From the UHGV virus genome UHGV-2155131: 11,422 nt of DNA; one strand, given 5' to 3'. The DNA is from a virus. This document shows, one piece after another, positions 4,322 through 11,422 of the stretch. The first letter of the stretch is position 1; each line of letters begins with the position of its first letter. A program made the position numbers and the translations under genes. Under the pieces are notes generated by a model. It was not told where the DNA came from. It worked only from the letters and a program-made list of their open reading frames with translations, and searched no databases.

Positions 4322-4594
4322 TTAGCTGTCTGGGTAATTACGCCATATTTCATCGCTTACACCATCTATACCCATTTCAGCATAAGTGCGATCTACTGCC
4401 TTTCTCAGGTCTCCGAAGTTATCCGGCGGCTCCGGTGGCTTCTGTGCCTTCCTGGAACATTCCAGCCGTCGCATCGTAACCTGATGCCGTTCCTTGTCTG
4501 TCTCCACCAGTTGCATGACTTCACCCCATCGTGCCGCCGCCCTCCGGTAAAAGCCTTTTGCCTCGAGTTCCTCCGCTATGCGGTCATGTACCAT
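4322..4594 (-). CDS. PerC-family transcriptional regulator-like protein
   Basis: Motif AEELEAKGFYRRAAARWGEVM resembles the conserved PerC/Pch core as I remember it. Preferred start is ATG 4594 with GAGGGGG upstream, directly after the SSB-tail stop. The ORF track extends to a GTG at 4714. Confidence 0.55.
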   Translation of the reverse strand: MVHDRIAEELEAKGFYRRAAARWGEVMQLVETDKERHQVTMRRLECSRKAQKPPEPPDNFGDLRKAVDRTYAEMGIDGVSDEIWRNYPDS

Positions 4595-4604
4595 CCTCAC
4601 CCCC

Positions 4605-4897
4605 TCAGAACGGAATATCATCACCGTAAGGGTCATCGCCTCCCGCTGGTGGCTGATTACCCTGTGTGCCTGTGGTCTTGCGTCTGTTCCCGCCAGGACG
4701 TGCCGCACGGGCACTGATTACGCTGTCTGCAATAACCTGATAACCCTGCCGCGTTTCCCCGTTCTGTCCGGTCCACTGGCTGATCTGCATGGCAAAGATA
4801 CCGCCATACGCGCCAGCGTCATCGGTGTACCCTTGCTGGTCTGTTTTACCTGCGGGTCGTCCACCAGCCGCCCGTAAGCGGCTATCTGTGCTGTCAT
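4605..4897 (-). pseudogene. SSB-like gene remnant in two frames: N-terminal OB-fold fragment (4718..4897) and C-terminal fragment ending in the DDIPF acidic tip (4605..4790)
   Basis: Frame A (MTAQIAAYGRLVDDPQVKQTSKGTPMTLARMAV...) resembles the SSB N-terminus. Frame B (...QISQWTGQNGETRQGYQVIAD...GGDDPYGDDIPF) resembles the SSB beta4-5 region and C-terminal tail. The frames overlap out of phase, about 40 aa of OB fold are missing, and no slippery heptamer was seen. Confidence 0.5.
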
Positions 4898-5458: not shown

Positions 5459-7207
5459 TTATAAAAACGCGTCACAATCATCAGTTGTAATTGCGTTGGT
5501 CTGCGTTACTCCCTTAACTCTCCGCGTAATATATTCATGTCCGTAAACTTTTGCCGCTGGCTTCATGGCCTTGCTGAACTCAGCCACGTTTAGCGGTTTG
5601 CTCCTGCCTGCGTATGCCATAAACGCCAGATAGACGCGGTAAAGGCTGTTTCTGGTCGTGTACTTCACGGAATCGCCACCGCCACCCATCATCAGGCCGC
5701 GAGCTTCCTCCAGAAAATTCAGGAACTGGCAAAACTCAATAACCGGATCCGTCTGTTGCTTTATCGCCAGTGCTTCATCACCGTCGCGCTGTTCCAGTAA
5801 TAAAGCCCGTGCCTTTTCAGGGTCGGCAAAATTAGCCAGCAAGCGACGGATAATTACGGGGATTTCAGCCGCGACCTTCTCCGGCAAATCCTTGTCTTTT
5901 TCGTCCTCCCTTACAATGTTGTCGAACCGGAAAATCACCCGACGGCGTGACACACCTCCGGCCCGCTCGGTGAATATCATCGGGTTATTGTTGGTAGCCA
6001 GCACCACCGCCCTGATTACCGCCGTAAAACGCTTCTCATATTTCGGGTTTATTTCCACTGGGTCGCCGCCCGTGATTTTCTTGATGCCCGTTCCTTCGCC
6101 TGTATATTTCGGCTGGTCAGCCAGGACGATAAGACGACTCCCGACAACCTGCGCACGTCCACCAGCATCATCAAGTGAGGTCATTTCAGCGCTTACCGTG
6201 TTCTGTTTCCCTGCCAGAAGGCTGGCTATGTGCGTGAATGTACTTTTACCGCTACCGCCCTCTCCGGTGGCCTCAATAAACATCTGCCAGTCGTACCGGT
6301 TCGCCATAATCATGTACAGCGCGGCACATATACGCATCATCTTGCGCGGGTCTTTTCCGGCTGCGTGCTCAAGCCATTTATGAAAGTTTGGCGCGTTGTC
6401 GCAGATATTCTCCCCTGGTGCTGGTGGCGTGTACTCAATGCCGTTGTGCGTGGTGATCCAGTTCTCCGGCGTGTGCGGGGAAAATTCCCCCGTTTTCAGG
6501 TCAAGCGCACCATTGGCGAACGGCAGCAAATCGCCGGACGGCTCCCCCATTGGTTCGGCAATAACTTTTAACGCTTCAACGGCGTTATTGATCACGCGTT
6601 TGCTAAAAGTGGCCCTGTGCTCTGAATAGATCGCCACCATTTCGCGGCTAAGTTCCATTGTGCTGACCGGACACCATACCCCGCCGCGCCATACGTGAAC
6701 GATTTCACTTTCCGGATGCACACAAACGCCATCAAATCGACCAGCAAGCATCTGTGCGCGCTCACTGTCTGCCATTTGTGCCAGTTGCGTATTTTTCTGC
6801 TCCGGCATGGTAAGCCCTGCGGCAATATTTTCACGCTCAGCATTCAGATAGCGCCGCCAGTTTTCACACTTCTGGACGTGCATTCCTTCGGGGTAAAAAT
6901 TTGCGTCCTGAATATCTGCCGCCGCCAGCTTCTGACCAATCTTTTTGGTCTCCACCAAATCCAGTTCTCCGGCCTGGTACAGCCTTACGCGTTTTTTTCC
7001 ATCCGGAACAATTTTCAGTGCATCAAGTTCGGCAAGCTGATTTGGCCCAAGCCACACAGGCGGCACATTATCGCCGGATGCGGGGCCATCCTGCTCCTGC
7101 CATTGTTTCGCGTGCGACCAGGCATCACTACCCGCGAAAATAATTACCTCTGTGTCTTTGTGTTTTATTCCGCGTGGCTGTTTTTTTACGTTCGGTGCCA
7201 GTTTCAT
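5459..7207 (-). CDS. P4-alpha-like primase / SF3 helicase replication protein
   Basis: 582 aa. Walker A motif GEGGSGKST mid-protein with a D5_N-like upstream region, typical of phage/plasmid primase P4-family C-terminal domains. GGGG motif before ATG; ATGA overlap with the upstream gene. Confidence 0.85.
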   Translation of the reverse strand: MKLAPNVKKQPRGIKHKDTEVIIFAGSDAWSHAKQWQEQDGPASGDNVPPVWLGPNQLAELDALKIVPDGKKRVRLYQAGELDLVETKKIGQKLAAADIQDANFYPEGMHVQKCENWRRYLNAERENIAAGLTMPEQKNTQLAQMADSERAQMLAGRFDGVCVHPESEIVHVWRGGVWCPVSTMELSREMVAIYSEHRATFSKRVINNAVEALKVIAEPMGEPSGDLLPFANGALDLKTGEFSPHTPENWITTHNGIEYTPPAPGENICDNAPNFHKWLEHAAGKDPRKMMRICAALYMIMANRYDWQMFIEATGEGGSGKSTFTHIASLLAGKQNTVSAEMTSLDDAGGRAQVVGSRLIVLADQPKYTGEGTGIKKITGGDPVEINPKYEKRFTAVIRAVVLATNNNPMIFTERAGGVSRRRVIFRFDNIVREDEKDKDLPEKVAAEIPVIIRRLLANFADPEKARALLLEQRDGDEALAIKQQTDPVIEFCQFLNFLEEARGLMMGGGGDSVKYTTRNSLYRVYLAFMAYAGRSKPLNVAEFSKAMKPAAKVYGHEYITRRVKGVTQTNAITTDDCDAFL

Positions 7208-7503
7208 TTTTTACCCCTGAATACGTTAAGCATCTTTTTTATTTCCTGAATATTGGCGCGTGCTTTCTCCCTGCTGGTGGGCACGTTACGCGGTACGGCC
7301 TGCACCAGAGAAAAATCACGATCGAACTGATAAACAGGCATCACGCAATCATATTCGTAGCCTTCACGACGGTAGGTTACGCGCCGTTCCTCCACGCCCT
7401 TAATCATTACCGTGCCGCCGTACTGGTCGCGGTAAATATCACCGCGCATGAATTTAGTGCGAGTTTTGCCACTGGCAGTTAAGCCAGAATATTTAAGTTT
7501 CAT
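7204..7503 (-). CDS. Hypothetical protein (99 aa), translationally coupled to primase
   Basis: ATG at 7503 with GGAG upstream. Stop overlaps the primase start. Confidence 0.5.
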   Translation of the reverse strand: MKLKYSGLTASGKTRTKFMRGDIYRDQYGGTVMIKGVEERRVTYRREGYEYDCVMPVYQFDRDFSLVQAVPRNVPTSREKARANIQEIKKMLNVFRGKK

Positions 7504-7739: not shown

Positions 7740-7959
7740 AAATTTTCTCCCTTATTCTTTTAATGTCCTCATTAAGGATGTCTGTAACTTTTATCAGCGA
7801 GTTTTTGGCAATTATTTTTATTGTTTTAAGTTTTCTTTTGTCGTGCTCCGACTGTGATTTTCTTTCCATAATCTCCACCATGTGGGTAACATCAACGAGC
7901 GCACGTATCAGTATTTGCATTGCTTCTTCTGCTGCGTCCGGACGGGTGTTATTGCACAT
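7729..7959 (-). CDS. Small hypothetical protein (76 aa) in a low-GC segment
   Basis: Strong AGGAGG Shine-Dalgarno motif 6 nt before ATG 7959. 11-nt overlap with the downstream gene. Confidence 0.55.
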   Translation of the reverse strand: MCNNTRPDAAEEAMQILIRALVDVTHMVEIMERKSQSEHDKRKLKTIKIIAKNSLIKVTDILNEDIKRIREKICDA

Positions 7960-8155
7960 GGCACACCTCCTGACGAATACGGGCAGCGAATACCATCACG
8001 CAGCCAGCCGGGGATTGCTGGCGTGCTTCCTGTTCGCTGGTGGCCTCGATGGTAATCACGCGCGGTTGTGCCGTGCTCAGGGCGATAAAACGCCAGATGT
8101 ATTTATTCAGGTCGTGCGAGTCCCGCCCTTGCGGGTGTGTGGTATGATTTCTCAT
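7949..8155 (-). CDS. Small hypothetical protein (68 aa), probable first gene of the leftward replication operon
   Basis: Internal ATG at 8155 with GAGG 6 nt upstream. Protein-like translation (MRNHTTHPQGRDSHDLNKYIWRFIALS...). Same frame as the long 439-codon ORF. Confidence 0.4.
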   Translation of the reverse strand: MRNHTTHPQGRDSHDLNKYIWRFIALSTAQPRVITIEATSEQEARQQSPAGCVMVFAARIRQEVCHVQ

Positions 8156-9268
8156 AGCTGCCTCGATACTTTCGCTATCGTTGGTGGTTAGAAGCCCGGT
8201 TAGTGTTAGCGCACTGCCGGGTTTCGTCGTTTCTGCACCTTGCGCCAACAAGGTGTTGAACACCAATTTAAACCCAGGTGTTAAACACGTCAAGTGTTGA
8301 ACACTTATTTTTTTTCCTGCATACTGCATTTGTTTTTTATGAGGGGTACACCACATGGCGACAAAAGCAGTAAACGCAAAATCACAAACCGTTGCGGCAA
8401 GGGTTCCGCATGAAGTTATGAACAATGTTGAGGCGGTAAAAATGCCTGGCGAAAGTACGGGGCAATTTGTTACTGCGGCATTAAAACGAGAAGTTGAATA
8501 TCGCCAGCGGCGCAAGGCCAGTGAATCCGAGAAATCATTAATCACGTCATAACATGAAGAACGATGGCGATAATCATAGGAGTAAAAGATGTTAAAATTA
8601 AAAAAACATGTACCAATGATGGTTGCTTTAATTATCACAATCTTTCTCTTAATATCATGCTTTGAGAAAAATAGTCTTTGCTCAAACGATAAGGGCGATT
8701 TATTACGGCGTGCTTGCGATGTAGAGTTGAAAAAAAGTTGAGCACTACCTAACCGAGACAATGCCGTAGTTCCTGTAATCACAGGATCGCTCAGGCTTTG
8801 CCCACCAGCCGCAAATATGGCATTGTTGGCAATGCTCATGCGTTGGGGATAACGTGTAGCTTGTGTCGAGGGGCCACCGTAGCGGGTGGCCTTTGTTTTG
8901 CCCGTTATTCGGCAATTGTGGCGCTTCTCCACATGGTTGATATAATCCCACTGCTCAGATTCATTTTTTGCGCAGTAGGTTAATTGTTCACAAAGGCGCT
9001 CCGGCAACGGGGCGCTTTTTGTTTTTATTAGTTTGTAGAAACCTGACTCAGAGATAATGCTCATATTCTGATTGCCGTCAGGGGTGTAAGTTAAATTTAC
9101 TCCCTTTTTATCATCAAACATCTGCAACGCTCTGGCGTTAACAATATTGGTTTCACTCCCGCCAGTAAGGCCGGAAATAACCGGAATAATTTCGGCAAAA
9201 TTTTGCAGATTCTGTTTTTCAGGACGAACGAAGCCCCGCCCTTGTTCGGGAGAATATCCAGTATTCAT
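7949..9268 (-). CDS. Bro-N domain (antirepressor-like) protein; only the N-terminal ~175 aa (about 8745..9268) is recognisable and the 3' extent is uncertain
   Basis: DGNQNMSIISESGFYKLI...LPERL matches the Bro-N core motif (NMNIINESGLYSLI). The frame then runs stop-free for about 800 nt through low-complexity translation, antisense to the RHH gene and the operators. Confidence 0.45.
   Translation of the reverse strand: MNTGYSPEQGRGFVRPEKQNLQNFAEIIPVISGLTGGSETNIVNARALQMFDDKKGVNLTYTPDGNQNMSIISESGFYKLIKTKSAPLPERLCEQLTYCAKNESEQWDYINHVEKRHNCRITGKTKATRYGGPSTQATRYPQRMSIANNAIFAAGGQSLSDPVITGTTALSRLGSAQLFFNSTSQARRNKSPLSFEQRLFFSKHDIKRKIVIIKATIIGTCFFNFNIFYSYDYRHRSSCYDVINDFSDSLALRRWRYSTSRFNAAVTNCPVLSPGIFTASTLFITSCGTLAATVCDFAFTAFVAMWCTPHKKQMQYAGKKISVQHLTCLTPGFKLVFNTLLAQGAETTKPGSALTLTGLLTTNDSESIEAAMRNHTTHPQGRDSHDLNKYIWRFIALSTAQPRVITIEATSEQEARQQSPAGCVMVFAARIRQEVCHVQ
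8253..8304. promoter_or_regulatory. Three operator-like inverted repeats GTGTTNAACAC within divergent promoters
   Basis: Copies at 8253..8263, 8278..8288 and 8294..8304. Rightward promoter candidate: -35 TTGAAC (8297..8302) and -10 CATACT (8320..8325). Leftward candidate: -35 TTGACG (complement of 8288..8293) and -10 TAAATT (complement of 8265..8270). Confidence 0.5.
8355..8552 (+). CDS. Ribbon-helix-helix-like small DNA-binding protein (putative island repressor/regulator)
   Basis: GAGGGG Shine-Dalgarno motif 8 nt before ATG. N-terminal beta-strand with alternating hydrophobics (TVAARVPHEV) followed by two helices, as in Arc/CopG-type proteins. Diverges from the operator region. Confidence 0.5.
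   Translation: MATKAVNAKSQTVAARVPHEVMNNVEAVKMPGESTGQFVTAALKREVEYRQRRKASESEKSLITS
8589..8666 (+). CDS. Candidate 25-aa cationic/hydrophobic peptide (MLKLKKHVPMMVALIITNLSLNIML) downstream of the RHH gene
   Basis: Canonical AGGAG 6 nt upstream of ATG. Below the ORF-track size cutoff. Composition resembles small membrane peptides. Translated by hand. Confidence 0.25.
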
Positions 9269-9320
9269 GGTTAGATCTCTGTATTAGTGGATGGGTGGCG
9301 GCTGTGTGCCGCCAGCCTGA

Positions 9321-9509
9321 TTAGTGAACTGCCTCGCAGCTGTCCTTCCATGCCAGAACTTCGGATAAAGACCAGCCAACGGAACGACCGCCCAGCTTAC
9401 GCCGTGATGGGAATTGTCCGGCTTTTTCCAGGCGGTACCGACATGAGCGGCTCAGGCCTGTAAGTTGCTGACATTCTTTTTCACGTATAAAGCGATCTGT
9501 GCTTAACAC
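9321..9509 (-). CDS. alpA: AlpA-family phage transcriptional regulator / excisionase-like protein
   Basis: 62 aa with the LxxxxRSVGWxxSEVxxW signature of AlpA-type winged-helix proteins. Located between int and the rest of the island, as in PICIs and P4-like elements. Confidence 0.8.
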   Translation of the reverse strand: MLSTDRFIREKECQQLTGLSRSCRYRLEKAGQFPSRRKLGGRSVGWSLSEVLAWKDSCEAVH

Positions 9510-9790
9510 AATTCCCCCTTTGTTGTTTCTTAAAGAGTCATTGGGTGGATTATTGGGTTGGGTTGTGTCGGATTGTGTCAGGGTGTTTGTGGAATGGCAA
9601 ACACTGGCGGCGGTCGTTTTACAGAAGCAGGGGGAATGAGAATAAAAACTCTTTTAATTCATTATGATGCAAAGGCATAAAATTTTACTTTTACGCCTTT
9701 TTTACATATTTTTAAGAGTGATTCGCCAGTGTATAAAAAAACAGTACACCTATAAAAATCAAATGGTTATTACGATGGCTGATTTTTAAC

Positions 9791-9850
9791 CCGTTGTTCC
9801 ATTTTGTTCCTTGTTGTTCGTCGTTGTGTCTCGTTGTTTCACGTTGTCCG
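9791..9850. repeat. Six tandem 10-bp repeats (NCGTTGTNYC) just 3' of int, in the alpA upstream region
   Basis: ccgttgttcc / attttgttcc / ttgttgttcg / tcgttgtgtc / tcgttgtttc / acgttgtccg in helical phase. Confidence 0.5.
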
Positions 9851-9874
9851 CATCCTGAAAAATCGCAAAAAAAA

Positions 9875-11125
9875 TTATATTTCTCTGGCTATTGGCAATG
9901 TGGTTACGTTTTCATGTGTTCCCGCCAGTATCCCTAACCGCTCCGTCCACATATCCAGCGCGTCACGTTTCGCATCCAGATAACGGGAATGGTTATAGAC
10001 TCGTTGCATCCCTGGCATCTGATGACCTGTAAGCTGCTCCACGACGTGAGGATCCACGCCTAAATCGTTCAGCATCGTTGTAAAGGTGCGCCGGATGTCA
10101 TGCAGTGACCAGTGAGGGTGTTTTAGCCTCCTGTGCGCTAATCTACCGTACTGCGACACGCTTGTTTCCTGTTTCACTTCCCCCAGCAATAAGCCCGTGT
10201 GCCTGTTCTGCTCCACCAGCTGCGTGACGAACGGCAGTATTGCTTCCGGTATGGGCCGGAATATTGCCACCTTCGTTTTGCTGTGTTCTTTCGGCACGGT
10301 CCAGAGCATTTCGGTAAAATCCCACTCGCTGATCTCCGATAACCTCAGTTCTACCGTCCGGCATCCGAAAACAATCAGGAGGCGGATTAGTGCGACGTAG
10401 TAAGGGGAAAATATTTTTTTGTCCAGTGCCTGCAATAATTCGCCAAGTTCTTTGGTGCTTAAGACACGCTCGCTTATATCCGGTTTTTTCCCAACGTCCG
10501 CCACACTCATATCATCAAGAACGTTGCTGATTGCATAGCGCCGCCTCCGGCAGAACTTAAGCGCCTGTTTGCACGTCTGTAGCAAGAATCCGGCAGTAAC
10601 AGGCGTTCGCTTTGCCACCTGGTCAAAACAGGCCAGCCAGTGCCGTAGCTCGCATTTATCCAGCGGCATAGCACCAATGTGCTGTATTACGTGATTATTA
10701 AGGCGCTTTTTCAGGGCGGCATAATCCACGCGGTTTTCCTTTGCGTACGACTCAAGCCAGTAGGTGAGCGCATCGCCAACCGTTACCGGCTTTAACGCTT
10801 CCTGTACGGTGTAATTAAGCTCATGACGTGGATTTTTCCCCTCTGCCAGCCATGCGCGACACTGGGCGGCTTTTTCCCTGGCTGATTTCAGGCTCAGATC
10901 AGGATAATTTCCCAGCTTAATGCGTTCCGGTGGTGCCCCCCTTCCCGTTCCGGCCCTGTAAGTGAAATACCAGGTTAAAAGGCCACTGGTTGAATGCCTG
11001 ACGCTCAGGTTTCCACCGTCATTAAGAAAGGCTGTTTTTTGGGCGGGTGTGCCGTTGATTTTCCTCAGCTGTGTATCGCTCAGTTTGTTAAGTGCTCTGC
11101 TCATAATTTTGATTCCGGTCATCAC
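9875..11125 (-). CDS. int: P4-family tyrosine integrase
   Basis: About 410 aa. N-terminal arm-binding-like region (LSDTQLRK...GGNLSVRHSTSG...WYFTYR) and C-terminal catalytic region with an HxxRRT-like motif (LHDIRRTF). The 11125 start is GTG; ATG alternatives at 11122 and 11104. Confidence 0.9.
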   Translation of the reverse strand: MMTGIKIMSRALNKLSDTQLRKINGTPAQKTAFLNDGGNLSVRHSTSGLLTWYFTYRAGTGRGAPPERIKLGNYPDLSLKSAREKAAQCRAWLAEGKNPRHELNYTVQEALKPVTVGDALTYWLESYAKENRVDYAALKKRLNNHVIQHIGAMPLDKCELRHWLACFDQVAKRTPVTAGFLLQTCKQALKFCRRRRYAISNVLDDMSVADVGKKPDISERVLSTKELGELLQALDKKIFSPYYVALIRLLIVFGCRTVELRLSEISEWDFTEMLWTVPKEHSKTKVAIFRPIPEAILPFVTQLVEQNRHTGLLLGEVKQETSVSQYGRLAHRRLKHPHWSLHDIRRTFTTMLNDLGVDPHVVEQLTGHQMPGMQRVYNHSRYLDAKRDALDMWTERLGILAGTHENVTTLPIAREI

Positions 11126-11151
11126 AATTAACTACACCATTAACTACACCG
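11126..11151. repeat. Right copy of 26-bp direct repeat; putative attR core, immediately upstream of the integrase start
   Basis: Exact match to 147..172. P4-family integrases classically have their att core just upstream of int. Confidence 0.7.
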
Positions 11152-11352
11152 ATCGTTGCACAAAGGGCTACAACGTGAAACAAGCTGGAACAAGGAAAAT
11201 CACAAATCTGTTTATAATCAAAAACATAATGAACAATCTGAAACATTATGAAACGGCAAAAAACACTAATTGATAAAATATGCCCATACTTCACGCATTA
11301 CGTTAAGCATCCGTTATAATCGGTTGCAGATACCAGCCTGTGGATGCTTAAC

Positions 11353-11422
11353 ATGGAATACCAACTCACTCTTAACTGGCCCGATTTTCTTGAACGTCAC
11401 TGGCAGAAACGCCCGGTGGTGT
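11353..11422 (+). CDS. roxA: 5' end of a chromosomal roxA (ycfD)-like gene, partial
   Basis: Translation MEYQLTLNWPDFLERHWQKRPVV matches my memory of the E. coli YcfD/RoxA N-terminus. Lies outside the right direct repeat. Confidence 0.55.
   Translation, partial: MEYQLTLNWPDFLERHWQKRPVV

What the first reader, a model, noticed from the sequence alone, without database searches (positions are those of the whole stretch)
8156..8552. Divergent genetic switch: RHH-like regulator facing the replication operon across three GTGTTNAACAC operators
Three evenly built inverted repeats overlap candidate -35/-10 elements for both a rightward promoter (RHH-like gene) and a leftward promoter (small genes then primase). 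This looks like a repressor-controlled lysogeny-type switch, the layer a helper phage antirepressor would target to induce the satellite.
Basis: partly seen in the sequence, partly recalled or inferred. Interest (0 to 1): 0.5.

Follow-up and report, generated by a model that had tools for sequence, protein, structure and literature searches.

The report
Satellite immunity switch: RHH repressor, swappable operators
The three palindromes are real operator sites for a small ribbon-helix-helix repressor, and together they form the swappable immunity cassette of an EcCICFT073-type phage satellite, a Gram-negative group for which no repressor had been identified; the cassette lies antisense inside a conserved read-through gene and next to a SymR-like antisense RNA.

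Summary
GTGTTNAACAC occurs exactly at 8253-8263, 8278-8288 and 8294-8304. The sites overlap a leftward sigma-70 promoter (-35 8293-8288, -10 8270-8265) and a rightward one (-35 8297-8302, -10 8320-8325).

About 100 distinct related loci keep the same site geometry. The inner 5 nt of GTG-N5-CAC change together with beta-strand residues 12 and 14 (Mantel p=0.001).

The window is 99% identical to the model satellite EcCICFT073 across int and alpA. The stretch 8243-8794 (operators, RHH gene, a small ORF) is replaced there by a different allele, so it behaves as a hetero-immunity cassette, and AlpA cannot be the protein that reads the sites.

- A 439-codon leftward ORF (7949-9268) runs antisense through the RHH gene and the operators. 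It stays open in 25 of 27 classes and resembles the nested eta/kil genes of phage P4.
- A SymR-like antisense RNA (about 8156-8237) covers the ribosome-binding site of the Icd-like gene.

The helper-antirepressor idea is untested. Published data showing that AlpA alone induces EcCICFT073 argue against it. No binding or expression was measured here.

The parts
8253..8263 (.). Operator O1 (GTGTTGAACAC), over the expected start site of the leftward promoter
   Evidence: Exact match. The equivalent site S1 lies at -99 to -104 from the RHH ATG in all related loci.
8278..8288 (.). Operator O2 (GTGTTAAACAC), in the spacer of the leftward promoter and touching its -35
   Evidence: Exact match. The equivalent site S2 is fixed at -77 and is always followed by (C)GTCAA, which is TTGAC on the other strand.
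8294..8304 (.). Operator O3 (GTGTTGAACAC), containing the -35 (TTGAAC) of the RHH gene's own promoter
   Evidence: Exact match. The window's clade has a site at -61. Most other clades instead have a site at -32 overlapping the -10. Either position would give autoregulation.
8265..8293 (-). Leftward promoter PL: -35 TTGACG 8293-8288, 17-nt spacer, -10 TAAATT 8270-8265
   Evidence: Promoter scan, 9 of 12 positions. The -35 is nearly invariant in related loci.
8297..8325 (+). Rightward promoter PR of the RHH gene: -35 TTGAAC 8297-8302, -10 CATACT 8320-8325
   Evidence: Read from the sequence, 8 of 12 positions. The -10 is conserved as TATACT/CATACT at about -40 to -33 in related loci.
8355..8552 (+). 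65-aa YlcI/YnfO-family ribbon-helix-helix protein, proposed to be the immunity repressor
8243..8794 (.). Swappable immunity cassette: operators, RHH gene and a small downstream ORF
   Evidence: This stretch has no blastn match to EcCICFT073, while its flanks are 92.5% (7965-8242) and 99.0% (8795-11422) identical.
8143..8237 (+). SymR-like cis-antisense small RNA gene: -10 TATGAT 8143-8148 (preceded by TG at 8140-8141), RNA about 8156-8237, terminal hairpin 8191-8225 followed by a U-rich tail
   Evidence: Rfam symR match, 29.8 bits, E 6e-4 in 301 nt. Fold z-score -4.3 on the plus strand against -2.0 on the minus strand. 15 of 21 pairs show compensatory changes, and 0 of 500 shuffles reach the observed values. 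125 G-U cells against 6 A-C cells. A covariance model built from these sequences finds the authentic K-12 symR at E 8e-7.
7949..8155 (-). Icd-like (P4 Kil-like) 68-aa gene, the first gene downstream of PL; its GAGG ribosome-binding site lies opposite the small RNA
   Evidence: NCBIfam NF033153, E 1.5e-19. GAGG lies 5 nt before the ATG at 8155.
7949..9268 (-). 439-codon read-through ORF (eta-like): conserved N-terminal part, then antisense to orf50, the RHH gene and the operators, ending as the Icd-like domain
   Evidence: ORF list. Open in 25 of 27 operator classes. In-frame with the Icd-like domain in many loci, and starts shortly after the alpA stop codon. NCBI annotates relatives of 350-470 aa as Icd-like proteins.
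9321..9509 (-). [quoted passage not shown]
   Evidence: Pfam Phage_AlpA, 3e-18. 62 of 62 residues identical to EcCICFT073 AlpA.
8589..8741 (+). orf50, a small lipoprotein-like ORF downstream of the RHH gene and inside the cassette
   Evidence: AGGAG Shine-Dalgarno sequence and an LISC lipobox, read. Not conserved in other cassettes.

Best explanation
The window is an EcCICFT073-type Gram-negative phage-inducible chromosomal island (PICI). The region 8143-8552 is its immunity and control region.

Step 1 (inferred from fold, geometry and covariation). The 65-aa YlcI/YnfO-family protein is a ribbon-helix-helix repressor. I assume it binds as a dimer, one dimer per 11-bp GTG-N5-CAC site, reading the variable inner bases with beta-strand residues 12 and 14. 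Bound at O1 and O2, it blocks the leftward promoter PL, which drives the Icd-like gene, small genes, DUF4222 and the primase. Bound at O3, it limits its own promoter. This keeps replication genes off in the resident island and in incoming islands of the same type. The many alleles make islands hetero-immune.

Step 2 (RNA structure, strand and similarity to SymR shown; function inferred). A SymR-like small RNA is transcribed rightward from a promoter inside the Icd-like gene. It is fully complementary to the PL leader and ribosome-binding site, so it should silence leaky synthesis of the Kil-like protein.

Step 3 (architecture shown; mechanism inferred by analogy with P4 eta/kil). Induction bypasses rather than removes the repressor. 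AlpA-dependent transcription from the alpA side runs leftward through a long ORF that is kept open across the RHH gene (antisense), the operators and the leader. Its translation does not need the blocked ribosome-binding site. The translating ribosome may also protect the transcript from premature termination and help it pass the bound repressor and the antisense RNA. Transcription and translation therefore reach the replication genes while running head-on over the repressor gene.

The confidence given applies to step 1. Steps 2 and 3 are less certain.
For: Sites are real and non-random.

Family: NF041551 scored above its cut-off.

Comparative evidence: 196 related loci were fetched, giving about 100 distinct ones. 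Site positions are fixed relative to the promoter elements: S1 at the start site, S2 in the PL spacer, S3 on the PR -10 or -35. The site core differs between loci and follows residues 12 and 14:
- T,A goes with TTGAA
- K,E goes with TCAGC
- A/S,K goes with TGGCC
- R,D goes with TCGGA
- K,Q goes with GAnTC
- S,T goes with TAAGA
Mantel r = 0.33, p = 0.001, against r = 0.06 for the rest of the protein. The partial Mantel test gives p = 0.0015.

Each island's own sites occur essentially only in this region.

Cassette swap against EcCICFT073, with AlpA identical while the operators differ. Other E. coli islands carry 101-aa alleles with their own matching sites. A stand-alone homolog with a single self-site and no antisense ORF shows that the plus-strand gene is real on its own.

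Long ORF: in the wobble-aligned antisense frame there are 6 stops in 972 intergenic codons and 0 in 1603 codons opposite the RHH gene, against 76-89 stops in each of the other two frames. It is in-frame with the Icd-like domain and follows alpA.

Small RNA.

[quoted passage not shown] P4 eta/kil nesting and read-through logic (PMC10111431). SymR layout (PMC1891008).
Against: No binding, expression or transcript data exist for any part.

Covariation could be inflated by shared descent. The K,Q and K,S classes are heterogeneous.

The rightward promoter is weak by consensus (8 of 12).

The P-values for ORF openness assume independent loci. The wobble-aligned antisense frame is naturally poor in stops: the chance that it is open opposite the RHH gene alone is about 0.4 per locus.

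AF2 of the 439-aa ORF was uninformative (pLDDT 28).

The SymR match is below Rfam's gathering score (29.8 against 61).

Whether AlpA drives transcription across this region in this island is inferred from another island and from P4.
Confidence: 0.7

Rival explanations
1. The RHH protein is a Stl-like master repressor, and induction occurs when a helper-phage antirepressor binds it and releases the operators.
For: The repressor gene is divergent from the replication operon and has cognate operators, as with the Stl/Rpr repressors of Gram-positive PICIs (PMC6092414). Many RHH proteins are controlled by partner proteins; this last point is from my own knowledge.
Against: EcCICFT073 carries the same module. 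Even so, AlpA over-expression in a non-lysogen is enough for excision and uncontrolled replication, and helpers act by raising alpA expression (PMC6092414). A conserved ORF bridges alpA to the replication genes across the repressor gene, which offers a route that needs no antirepressor. No candidate partner was found.
Confidence: 0.15
2. The 65-aa ORF is not a real gene. The real product is the long leftward Icd-like protein, and the palindromes are read by some other factor (AlpA or a host protein) or act at the RNA level, like P4 seqA/seqB.
For: Many genomes annotate only the long ORF of 350-470 aa. The two frames share wobble positions, so conservation cannot separate them. P4 immunity works through RNA pairing (PMC10111431).
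Against: The family has a curated NCBIfam model. It has members in non-overlapping contexts: K-12 ylcI beside cos and the stand-alone L004 gene. The RHH model is confident, whereas the antisense-encoded stretch has no confident fold. AlpA is identical in two islands whose operators differ. No complementary copy of the sites exists elsewhere in the islands. Non-palindromic sites occur as direct repeats, which cannot form hairpins. There is no C4/isrK match.
Confidence: 0.05
3. The RHH protein is the antitoxin, or autoregulator, of a small toxin-antitoxin or exclusion module formed with the downstream ORF. It is not a regulator of replication.
Against: The downstream ORF is not conserved. It is lipoprotein-like here, a basic 57-aa ORF in CFT073, and absent in Xenorhabdus-type loci, where alpA ends about 150 nt after the gene. 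By contrast, the two sites on the leftward promoter are conserved everywhere.
Confidence: 0.05

Closest known systems
Phage P4 immunity region (PLE promoter, CI RNA with seqA/seqB, nested kil within eta, upstream late promoter with vis/alpA homolog)
   Same: The position between alpA and the primase operon is the same. A short Icd/Kil-like gene forms the end of a longer ORF that begins upstream of an internal promoter. Read-through from the alpA side would be insensitive to immunity (PMC10111431; window). The primase is of the P4 type.
   Different: There is no CI/C4-type RNA here, and my RNA model finds nothing in P4. Immunity here is a protein repressor acting on transcription initiation, encoded on the opposite strand inside the eta-like ORF, plus a cis-antisense RNA. 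The Icd-like protein and the P4 ORF are only marginally similar (E 0.08).
EcCICFT073, the model Gram-negative PICI
   Same: 99% identical across int, alpA and the start of the long ORF. Same integration side, next to roxA, and the same gene order through primase, PerC and capsid.
   Different: The cassette 8243-8794 is a different allele. EcCICFT073 has beta-strand QALKA with GTGTGGCCCAC sites; the window has QTVAA with GTGTTGAACAC. In the papers I could search, the YlcI/YnfO gene is not assigned any role in PICI control.
Ribbon-helix-helix repressors with repeated short sites: P22 Arc/Mnt, plasmid CopG, and the omega repressor of pSM19035
   Same: Small beta-alpha-alpha proteins. Several short sites overlap promoter elements, with autoregulation. 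As with omega heptads, the sites occur in direct or inverted orientation.
   Different: No sequence-level membership in those families. The site is an 11-bp GTG-N5-CAC, with an apparent two-residue specificity code and many natural alleles.
Stl/Rpr master repressors of Gram-positive PICIs (SaPIs)
   Same: The role is the same: a divergently transcribed repressor holding the replication operon off (PMC6092414).
   Different: The fold differs, since Stl/Rpr are helix-turn-helix proteins (my own knowledge). The orientation relative to int differs. Induction most likely goes through AlpA-driven read-through, not a helper antirepressor.
SymR/SymE of E. coli K-12 (Rfam RF01809)
   Same: [quoted passage not shown] It has two stem-loops, including a shared GUGUUNGCGCAC loop region. 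The matches are reciprocal (PMC1891008).
   Different: The target is an Icd/Kil-like gene of a satellite, not SymE. The score is below Rfam's gathering threshold. It is paired with an RHH repressor here, not with LexA.

Membership tests
YlcI/YnfO family (NCBIfam NF041551) | HMM score above the curated cut-off | tested here: met
   59.2 bits against a cut-off of 30, E 2.9e-16, residues 9-50. RefSeq names the homologs this way in L001, CFT073 and other islands.
Ribbon-helix-helix (Arc/MetJ/CopG) DNA-binding superfamily | beta-alpha-alpha fold | tested here: met
Ribbon-helix-helix (Arc/MetJ/CopG) DNA-binding superfamily | Sequence match to a curated RHH family or to a solved RHH protein | tested here: not met
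   No Pfam family reached threshold for any of the 39 members. No PDB sequence match below E 0.99.
Ribbon-helix-helix (Arc/MetJ/CopG) DNA-binding superfamily | Dimer whose paired beta-strands read repeated operator sites | tested here: inconclusive
   The evidence is indirect only: residues 12 and 14 of the predicted strand co-vary with the inner 5 nt of the sites. Dimer formation and binding cannot be tested with these tools.
Gram-negative PICI (EcCICFT073 type) | Co-oriented int, alpA, Bro-type zone, primase and late genes, of small size, integrated at a specific site | tested here: met
   Domains found. 99% identity to EcCICFT073 across int and alpA, and the same flank. Organisation as described in PMC6092414 and PMC10111431.
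Stl/Rpr-type PICI master repressor | Repression lifted by a helper-phage protein binding the repressor | not testable with these tools
   Published results that AlpA alone induces EcCICFT073 argue against it being required.
P4-type immunity | CI/C4-type immunity RNA with seqA/seqB targets | tested here: not met
   No C4 or isrK match at the gathering threshold or at E up to 5.
P4-type immunity | Short kil-like gene nested at the end of a longer ORF that starts upstream of the internal promoter and follows the alpA homolog | tested here: met
   7949-8155 lies within 7949-9268. Conserved in 25 of 27 classes.
SymR antitoxin RNA (Rfam RF01809) | Score at or above the gathering threshold (61 bits) | tested here: not met
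   29.8 bits, E 6e-4 in a 301-nt search and 0.004 in a 1.9-kb search.
SymR antitoxin RNA (Rfam RF01809) | Cis-antisense to the 5' end or ribosome-binding site of the target, promoter inside the target's coding region, conserved two-hairpin structure | tested here: met
   Layout read. Structure and strand. My model finds K-12 symR at exactly its annotated place, E 8e-7. Transcription itself was not tested.

The most novel reading that the evidence does not exclude
Gram-negative PICIs are kept quiescent by a previously unrecognised, highly polymorphic RHH immunity repressor (YlcI/YnfO family). Its gene and operators are nested antisense inside a translated read-through ORF. AlpA-driven transcription and translation physically run over the repressor gene, its operators and a SymR-like antisense RNA, and so flip the island into replication. 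This would be a three-layer, two-strand switch that fuses P4-style read-through logic with lambda-style hetero-immunity.
Probability: 0.35. Interest if true: 0.8.

Novelty: new variant of a known kind. Interest (0 to 1): 0.66.

Why it matters
[quoted passage not shown] This analysis does four things:
- It names a concrete candidate repressor that is present in the model element EcCICFT073 itself, together with its operators.
- It gives a function to the uncharacterised YlcI/YnfO (DUF3950) family.
- It predicts a simple two-residue code for operator specificity that can be tested by swapping residues.
- It explains the mosaic immunity types among otherwise near-identical islands.

It also points to an unusual coding arrangement, with a repressor gene entirely antisense within a conserved ORF, and it links the K-12 SymR RNA to a satellite control module. 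For engineered PICI vectors, knowing the immunity determinant matters for host range and for superinfection.

Tried and rejected
Searches that found nothing, and readings I set aside:
- Sequence searches for a known DNA-binding family. Pfam gave nothing significant for the window protein or for any of 39 homologs. A PDB sequence profile search gave nothing.
- Rfam at gathering thresholds over the whole window found nothing. No C4 or isrK (P4 CI-type) RNA appeared even at E up to 5.
- The fourth near-site, at 9499-9509 on the alpA start codon. It recurs only with this alpA allele in QTVAA-type loci. No other specificity class has a cognate site at alpA, and the number of stray sites in 493 kb is about what chance gives. 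I treat it as coincidence.
Rejected, because AlpA is 62 of 62 residues identical in EcCICFT073, whose operators differ.
- The PHROG label 'transcriptional repressor' for the Icd-like protein. It most likely derives from the old annotation of the P4 'cI' ORF. I do not count it as evidence of DNA binding.
- AF2 of the 439-aa ORF was too shallow and low in confidence to say whether the antisense-encoded middle part is disordered (pLDDT 28).
- tblastn against 50,697 GenBank phage records found no relative, so there is no sign that helpers carry the same allele.
- The toxin-antitoxin reading was rejected because the downstream ORF is not conserved.
- The PerC-type 'repressor' described for EcCIMP1 is a different protein.
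Full report
**What the window is.** The window carries, all on the minus strand:
- an integrase (9875-11125)
- alpA (9321-9509)
- an Icd-like gene (7949-8155)
- two small ORFs
- a DUF4222 gene (7204-7503)
- a P4-type primase (5459-7207)
- a PerC-family gene
- a lambda E-type capsid gene and a D-type head-decoration gene

It is 99.0% identical to the model Gram-negative PICI EcCICFT073 over 8795-11422. That stretch includes int, an AlpA identical at 62 of 62 residues, and the flank towards roxA. It is 86-95% identical over the replication and late genes. A near-identical island in E. coli AREA_492 sits inside a lambdoid prophage terminase gene. That is the helper-embedded configuration described in PMC10111431.

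**Check of the observation.** GTGTTNAACAC occurs exactly three times, at 8253-8263, 8278-8288 and 8294-8304. With up to 1 mismatch allowed the window holds 4 matches, against a mean of 0.39 in shuffles; 1 of 200 shuffles reached 4. The three sites form one repeat family with spacings of 25 and 16 nt.

The scan found a leftward promoter, TTGACG(8293-8288)-17-TAAATT(8270-8265). O2 fills its spacer, O1 covers the expected start site, and O3 abuts the -35. A rightward promoter, TTGAAC(8297-8302)-17-CATACT(8320-8325), matches 8 of 12 positions, and its -35 lies inside O3 (read). So the description is correct, except that the sites are not evenly spaced and the stretch is not plain intergenic DNA (see below).

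**The protein.** The 65-aa ORF (8355-8552) has no Pfam or PDB sequence relative. It does score above the cut-off for NCBIfam YlcI/YnfO (NF041551, 59.2 against 30 bits), a family with no assigned function. In the only satellite paper I found that names it, it is listed simply as a 'prophage-associated protein' (PMC13612085).

The family is small. Only 80 clusters at 50% identity, out of 1.84 billion representatives, reach E ≤ 0.001. None is found in GenBank phage records.

**Comparative evidence that protein and sites belong together.** I fetched 196 related loci from genomes, viral contigs and metagenomes. They span Escherichia, Salmonella, Klebsiella, Pectobacterium, Proteus, Xenorhabdus and other genera, and most have the same order of int, alpA, this gene and then the primase operon.

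In about 100 distinct loci the geometry is fixed:
- One 11-bp site lies at -77 from the ATG, immediately followed by (C)GTCAA, which is the -35 of the leftward promoter.
- One site lies at -99 to -104, just past that promoter's -10.
- A third site overlaps the -10 of the gene's own promoter (at -32) or, in the window's clade, its -35 (at -61).

The general site is GTG-N5-CAC. Its inner bases differ between loci, but they are the same among the sites within one locus. They also track strand residues 12 and 14:

| Residues 12, 14 | Site core |
|---|---|
| T, A | TTGAA |
| K, E | TCAGC |
| A/S, K | TGGCC |
| R, D | TCGGA |
| K, Q | GAnTC |
| S, T | TAAGA |
| M/L, T | AAATA / AAACA |

Across 18 strand motifs, the Mantel correlation between residues 12/14 and site distance is 0.33 (p = 0.001). 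The rest of the protein gives 0.06, and the partial test gives p = 0.0015. Distant genera with the same strand keep identical sites while the spacers have diverged; KKLEA in Escherichia and Xenorhabdus is one example.

Scanning 73 loci (493 kb) with each locus's own site found no conserved extra sites. The near-site on the alpA start codon (9499-9509) is limited to one alpA allele, and I treat it as chance.

**An immunity cassette.** Against EcCICFT073, the window's 8243-8794 has no blastn match, while its flanks are 92.5% and 99.0% identical. This stretch holds the operators, the RHH gene and a small downstream ORF. EcCICFT073 has at that place a QALKA allele with GTGTGGCCCAC sites. Other E. 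coli islands have 101-aa alleles with their own matching sites.

This is the pattern of a swappable hetero-immunity module. Because AlpA is identical in the two islands while the operators differ, AlpA is not the protein that reads them.

I found no paper in the searchable library that assigns this role to the gene. The founding PICI paper says a global repressor in Gram-negative PICIs is 'unclear' (PMC6092414).

**First missed layer: a gene on the other strand.** A minus-strand ORF of 439 codons (7949-9268) starts 52 nt after the alpA stop. It runs antisense through orf50, the whole RHH gene, the promoters and the operators, and it ends as the Icd-like domain.

Across 27 representatives of different operator classes, I counted stop codons in the antisense frame that shares wobble positions with the RHH frame:

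| Region | Wobble-aligned antisense frame | Other two antisense frames |
|---|---|---|
| Intergenic (972 codons per frame) | 6 stops | 88 and 76 stops |
| Opposite the RHH gene (about 1603-1630 codons per frame) | 0 stops | 79 and 89 stops |

That frame is open throughout in 25 of 27 classes. The chance estimates are about 1e-11 and 1e-26 if the loci were independent, which overstates the significance.

In many loci the ORF is in-frame with the Icd-like domain and begins within tens of nucleotides of the alpA stop. NCBI annotates relatives of 350-470 aa as 'Icd-like' proteins.

This matches the arrangement in phage P4, where kil forms the terminal part of eta. There, eta starts upstream of the internal constitutive promoter, follows the alpA homolog, and is translated only from the upstream promoter. 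Its translation lets transcription read through the immunity region (summary in PMC10111431).

A stand-alone homolog with a single self-site and no antisense ORF (L004) and K-12 ylcI beside cos show that the plus-strand gene is real in its own right. AF2 of the long ORF was uninformative (pLDDT 28; only the Icd-like end reached 50-62).

**Second missed layer: a SymR-like antisense RNA.** The plus strand at 8156-8228 gives the only notable Rfam match in the region: SymR, 29.8 bits, below the gathering score of 61, with E 6e-4 in 301 nt.
- *Folding.* The plus-strand RNA folds far better than shuffled sequence (z -4.3). The minus strand gives z -2.0.
- *Covariation.* In an alignment of 42 diverse loci, 96.9% of cells pair and 15 of 21 pairs show compensatory changes. 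No shuffle out of 500 reaches the observed values, and slid controls pair at only 35-46%.
- *Strand.* G-U cells outnumber A-C cells 125 to 6. The structure therefore holds on the plus strand (96.9% paired) and less well on the minus strand (83.4%).
- *Reciprocal match.* A covariance model built from these sequences finds the authentic K-12 symR at exactly its annotated position (34 bits, E 8e-7). It finds nothing in P4.
- *Layout.* A -10 element (TATGAT, 8143-8148, preceded by TG) lies inside the Icd-like coding region. The RNA would start at about 8156 and be complementary to the GAGG ribosome-binding site and the whole PL leader. It would end in a hairpin (8191-8225) with a U-rich tail, just short of O1.

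This is the layout described for SymR and symE (PMC1891008). Many E. coli islands share the Icd-like gene and this RNA up to about 8233, and diverge beyond that point.

**How it most likely works.**
- *Shown:* the sites, their geometry on both promoters, the fold class, the residue-site covariation, the cassette swap, the conserved open frame, and the RNA structure and its strand.
- *Inferred:* the RHH protein binds O1 and O2 to shut off PL, and with it the replication operon. It binds O3 (or the -10 site in other clades) to limit itself, and its alleles define immunity types. The antisense RNA silences leaky translation of the Kil-like protein. Induction goes through AlpA-dependent transcription from upstream, carried across the cassette by translation of the long ORF, and it runs head-on over the repressor gene.

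In support of the last point, AlpA activates genes downstream of alpA in EcCICFT073, and AlpA alone induces replication without a helper. An AlpA protein of Pseudomonas acts as an antiterminator (abstract of PMC7969949). The helper-antirepressor idea is therefore possible but not needed, and it has no support here.

**Verdict.** It is a new variant of known kinds: an RHH repressor-operator immunity system, P4-type nested read-through genes, and a SymR-type antisense RNA. Its importance lies in filling an acknowledged gap for Gram-negative PICIs and in the unusual two-strand coding. Everything about binding, transcripts and induction remains to be tested.

Noticed in passing
window 8589-8741 (+): A 50-aa ORF with a strong AGGAG ribosome-binding site and a lipoprotein signal (lipobox LISC) follows the RHH gene inside the swapped cassette, antisense to the long ORF. 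EcCICFT073 and another island have an unrelated basic 57-aa ORF at that place.
   Followed up: partly
window 8741-8765 (-): A weak terminator-like hairpin followed by a T-run lies on the minus strand inside the long ORF, between alpA and the RHH gene. It could be a point where translation or AlpA decides read-through.
   Followed up: no
L001 (NZ_CP123335.1 2824334-2843168): A near-identical island, with a different integrase, is inserted in the terminase large-subunit gene of a lambdoid prophage. This is the helper-embedded PICI configuration of PMC10111431.
   Followed up: partly
L199 3550-3643 (+): An E. coli O111 island holds a second full copy of the SymR-like RNA (79.9 bits) between the YlcI/YnfO gene and alpA. 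This suggests a duplicated or remnant control module.
   Followed up: no
L198 8252-8446 (E. coli K-12 ylcI): The family's namesake, ylcI, lies immediately beside the cos site of prophage DLP12, upstream of nohD and opposite to the late genes. It is only 22% identical to the window protein. Its role there is unknown and could relate to packaging or late transcription.
   Followed up: partly
window 9499-9509: A one-mismatch operator-like site (GTGCTTAACAC) coincides with the GTG start codon of alpA. It recurs only with this alpA allele, so I judge it to be chance.
   Followed up: yes
window 4605-4897 and 4322-4714 (-): The single-strand-binding protein gene appears broken: a 59-aa N-terminal SSB fragment at 4718-4897, with another ORF overlapping it. 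L001 and CFT073 have an intact ssb of about 140 aa. The PerC-family ORF here is extended to 130 aa.
   Followed up: no
window about 2100-2250: A run of masked or unknown bases (translated as X) interrupts the 135-aa ORF at 2053-2460 downstream of the head-decoration gene.
   Followed up: no
L201 8168-8584 (phage P4): The GenBank record of P4 still annotates the eta/kil ORF as 'cI gene product, transcriptional repressor'. This probably explains why PHROGs labels Icd-like proteins as transcriptional repressors.
   Followed up: partly
L001 15043-15109 (-): A weak match to the SymR-like RNA model (23 bits, E 9e-4) lies in the lysis region of the surrounding lambdoid prophage.
   Followed up: no
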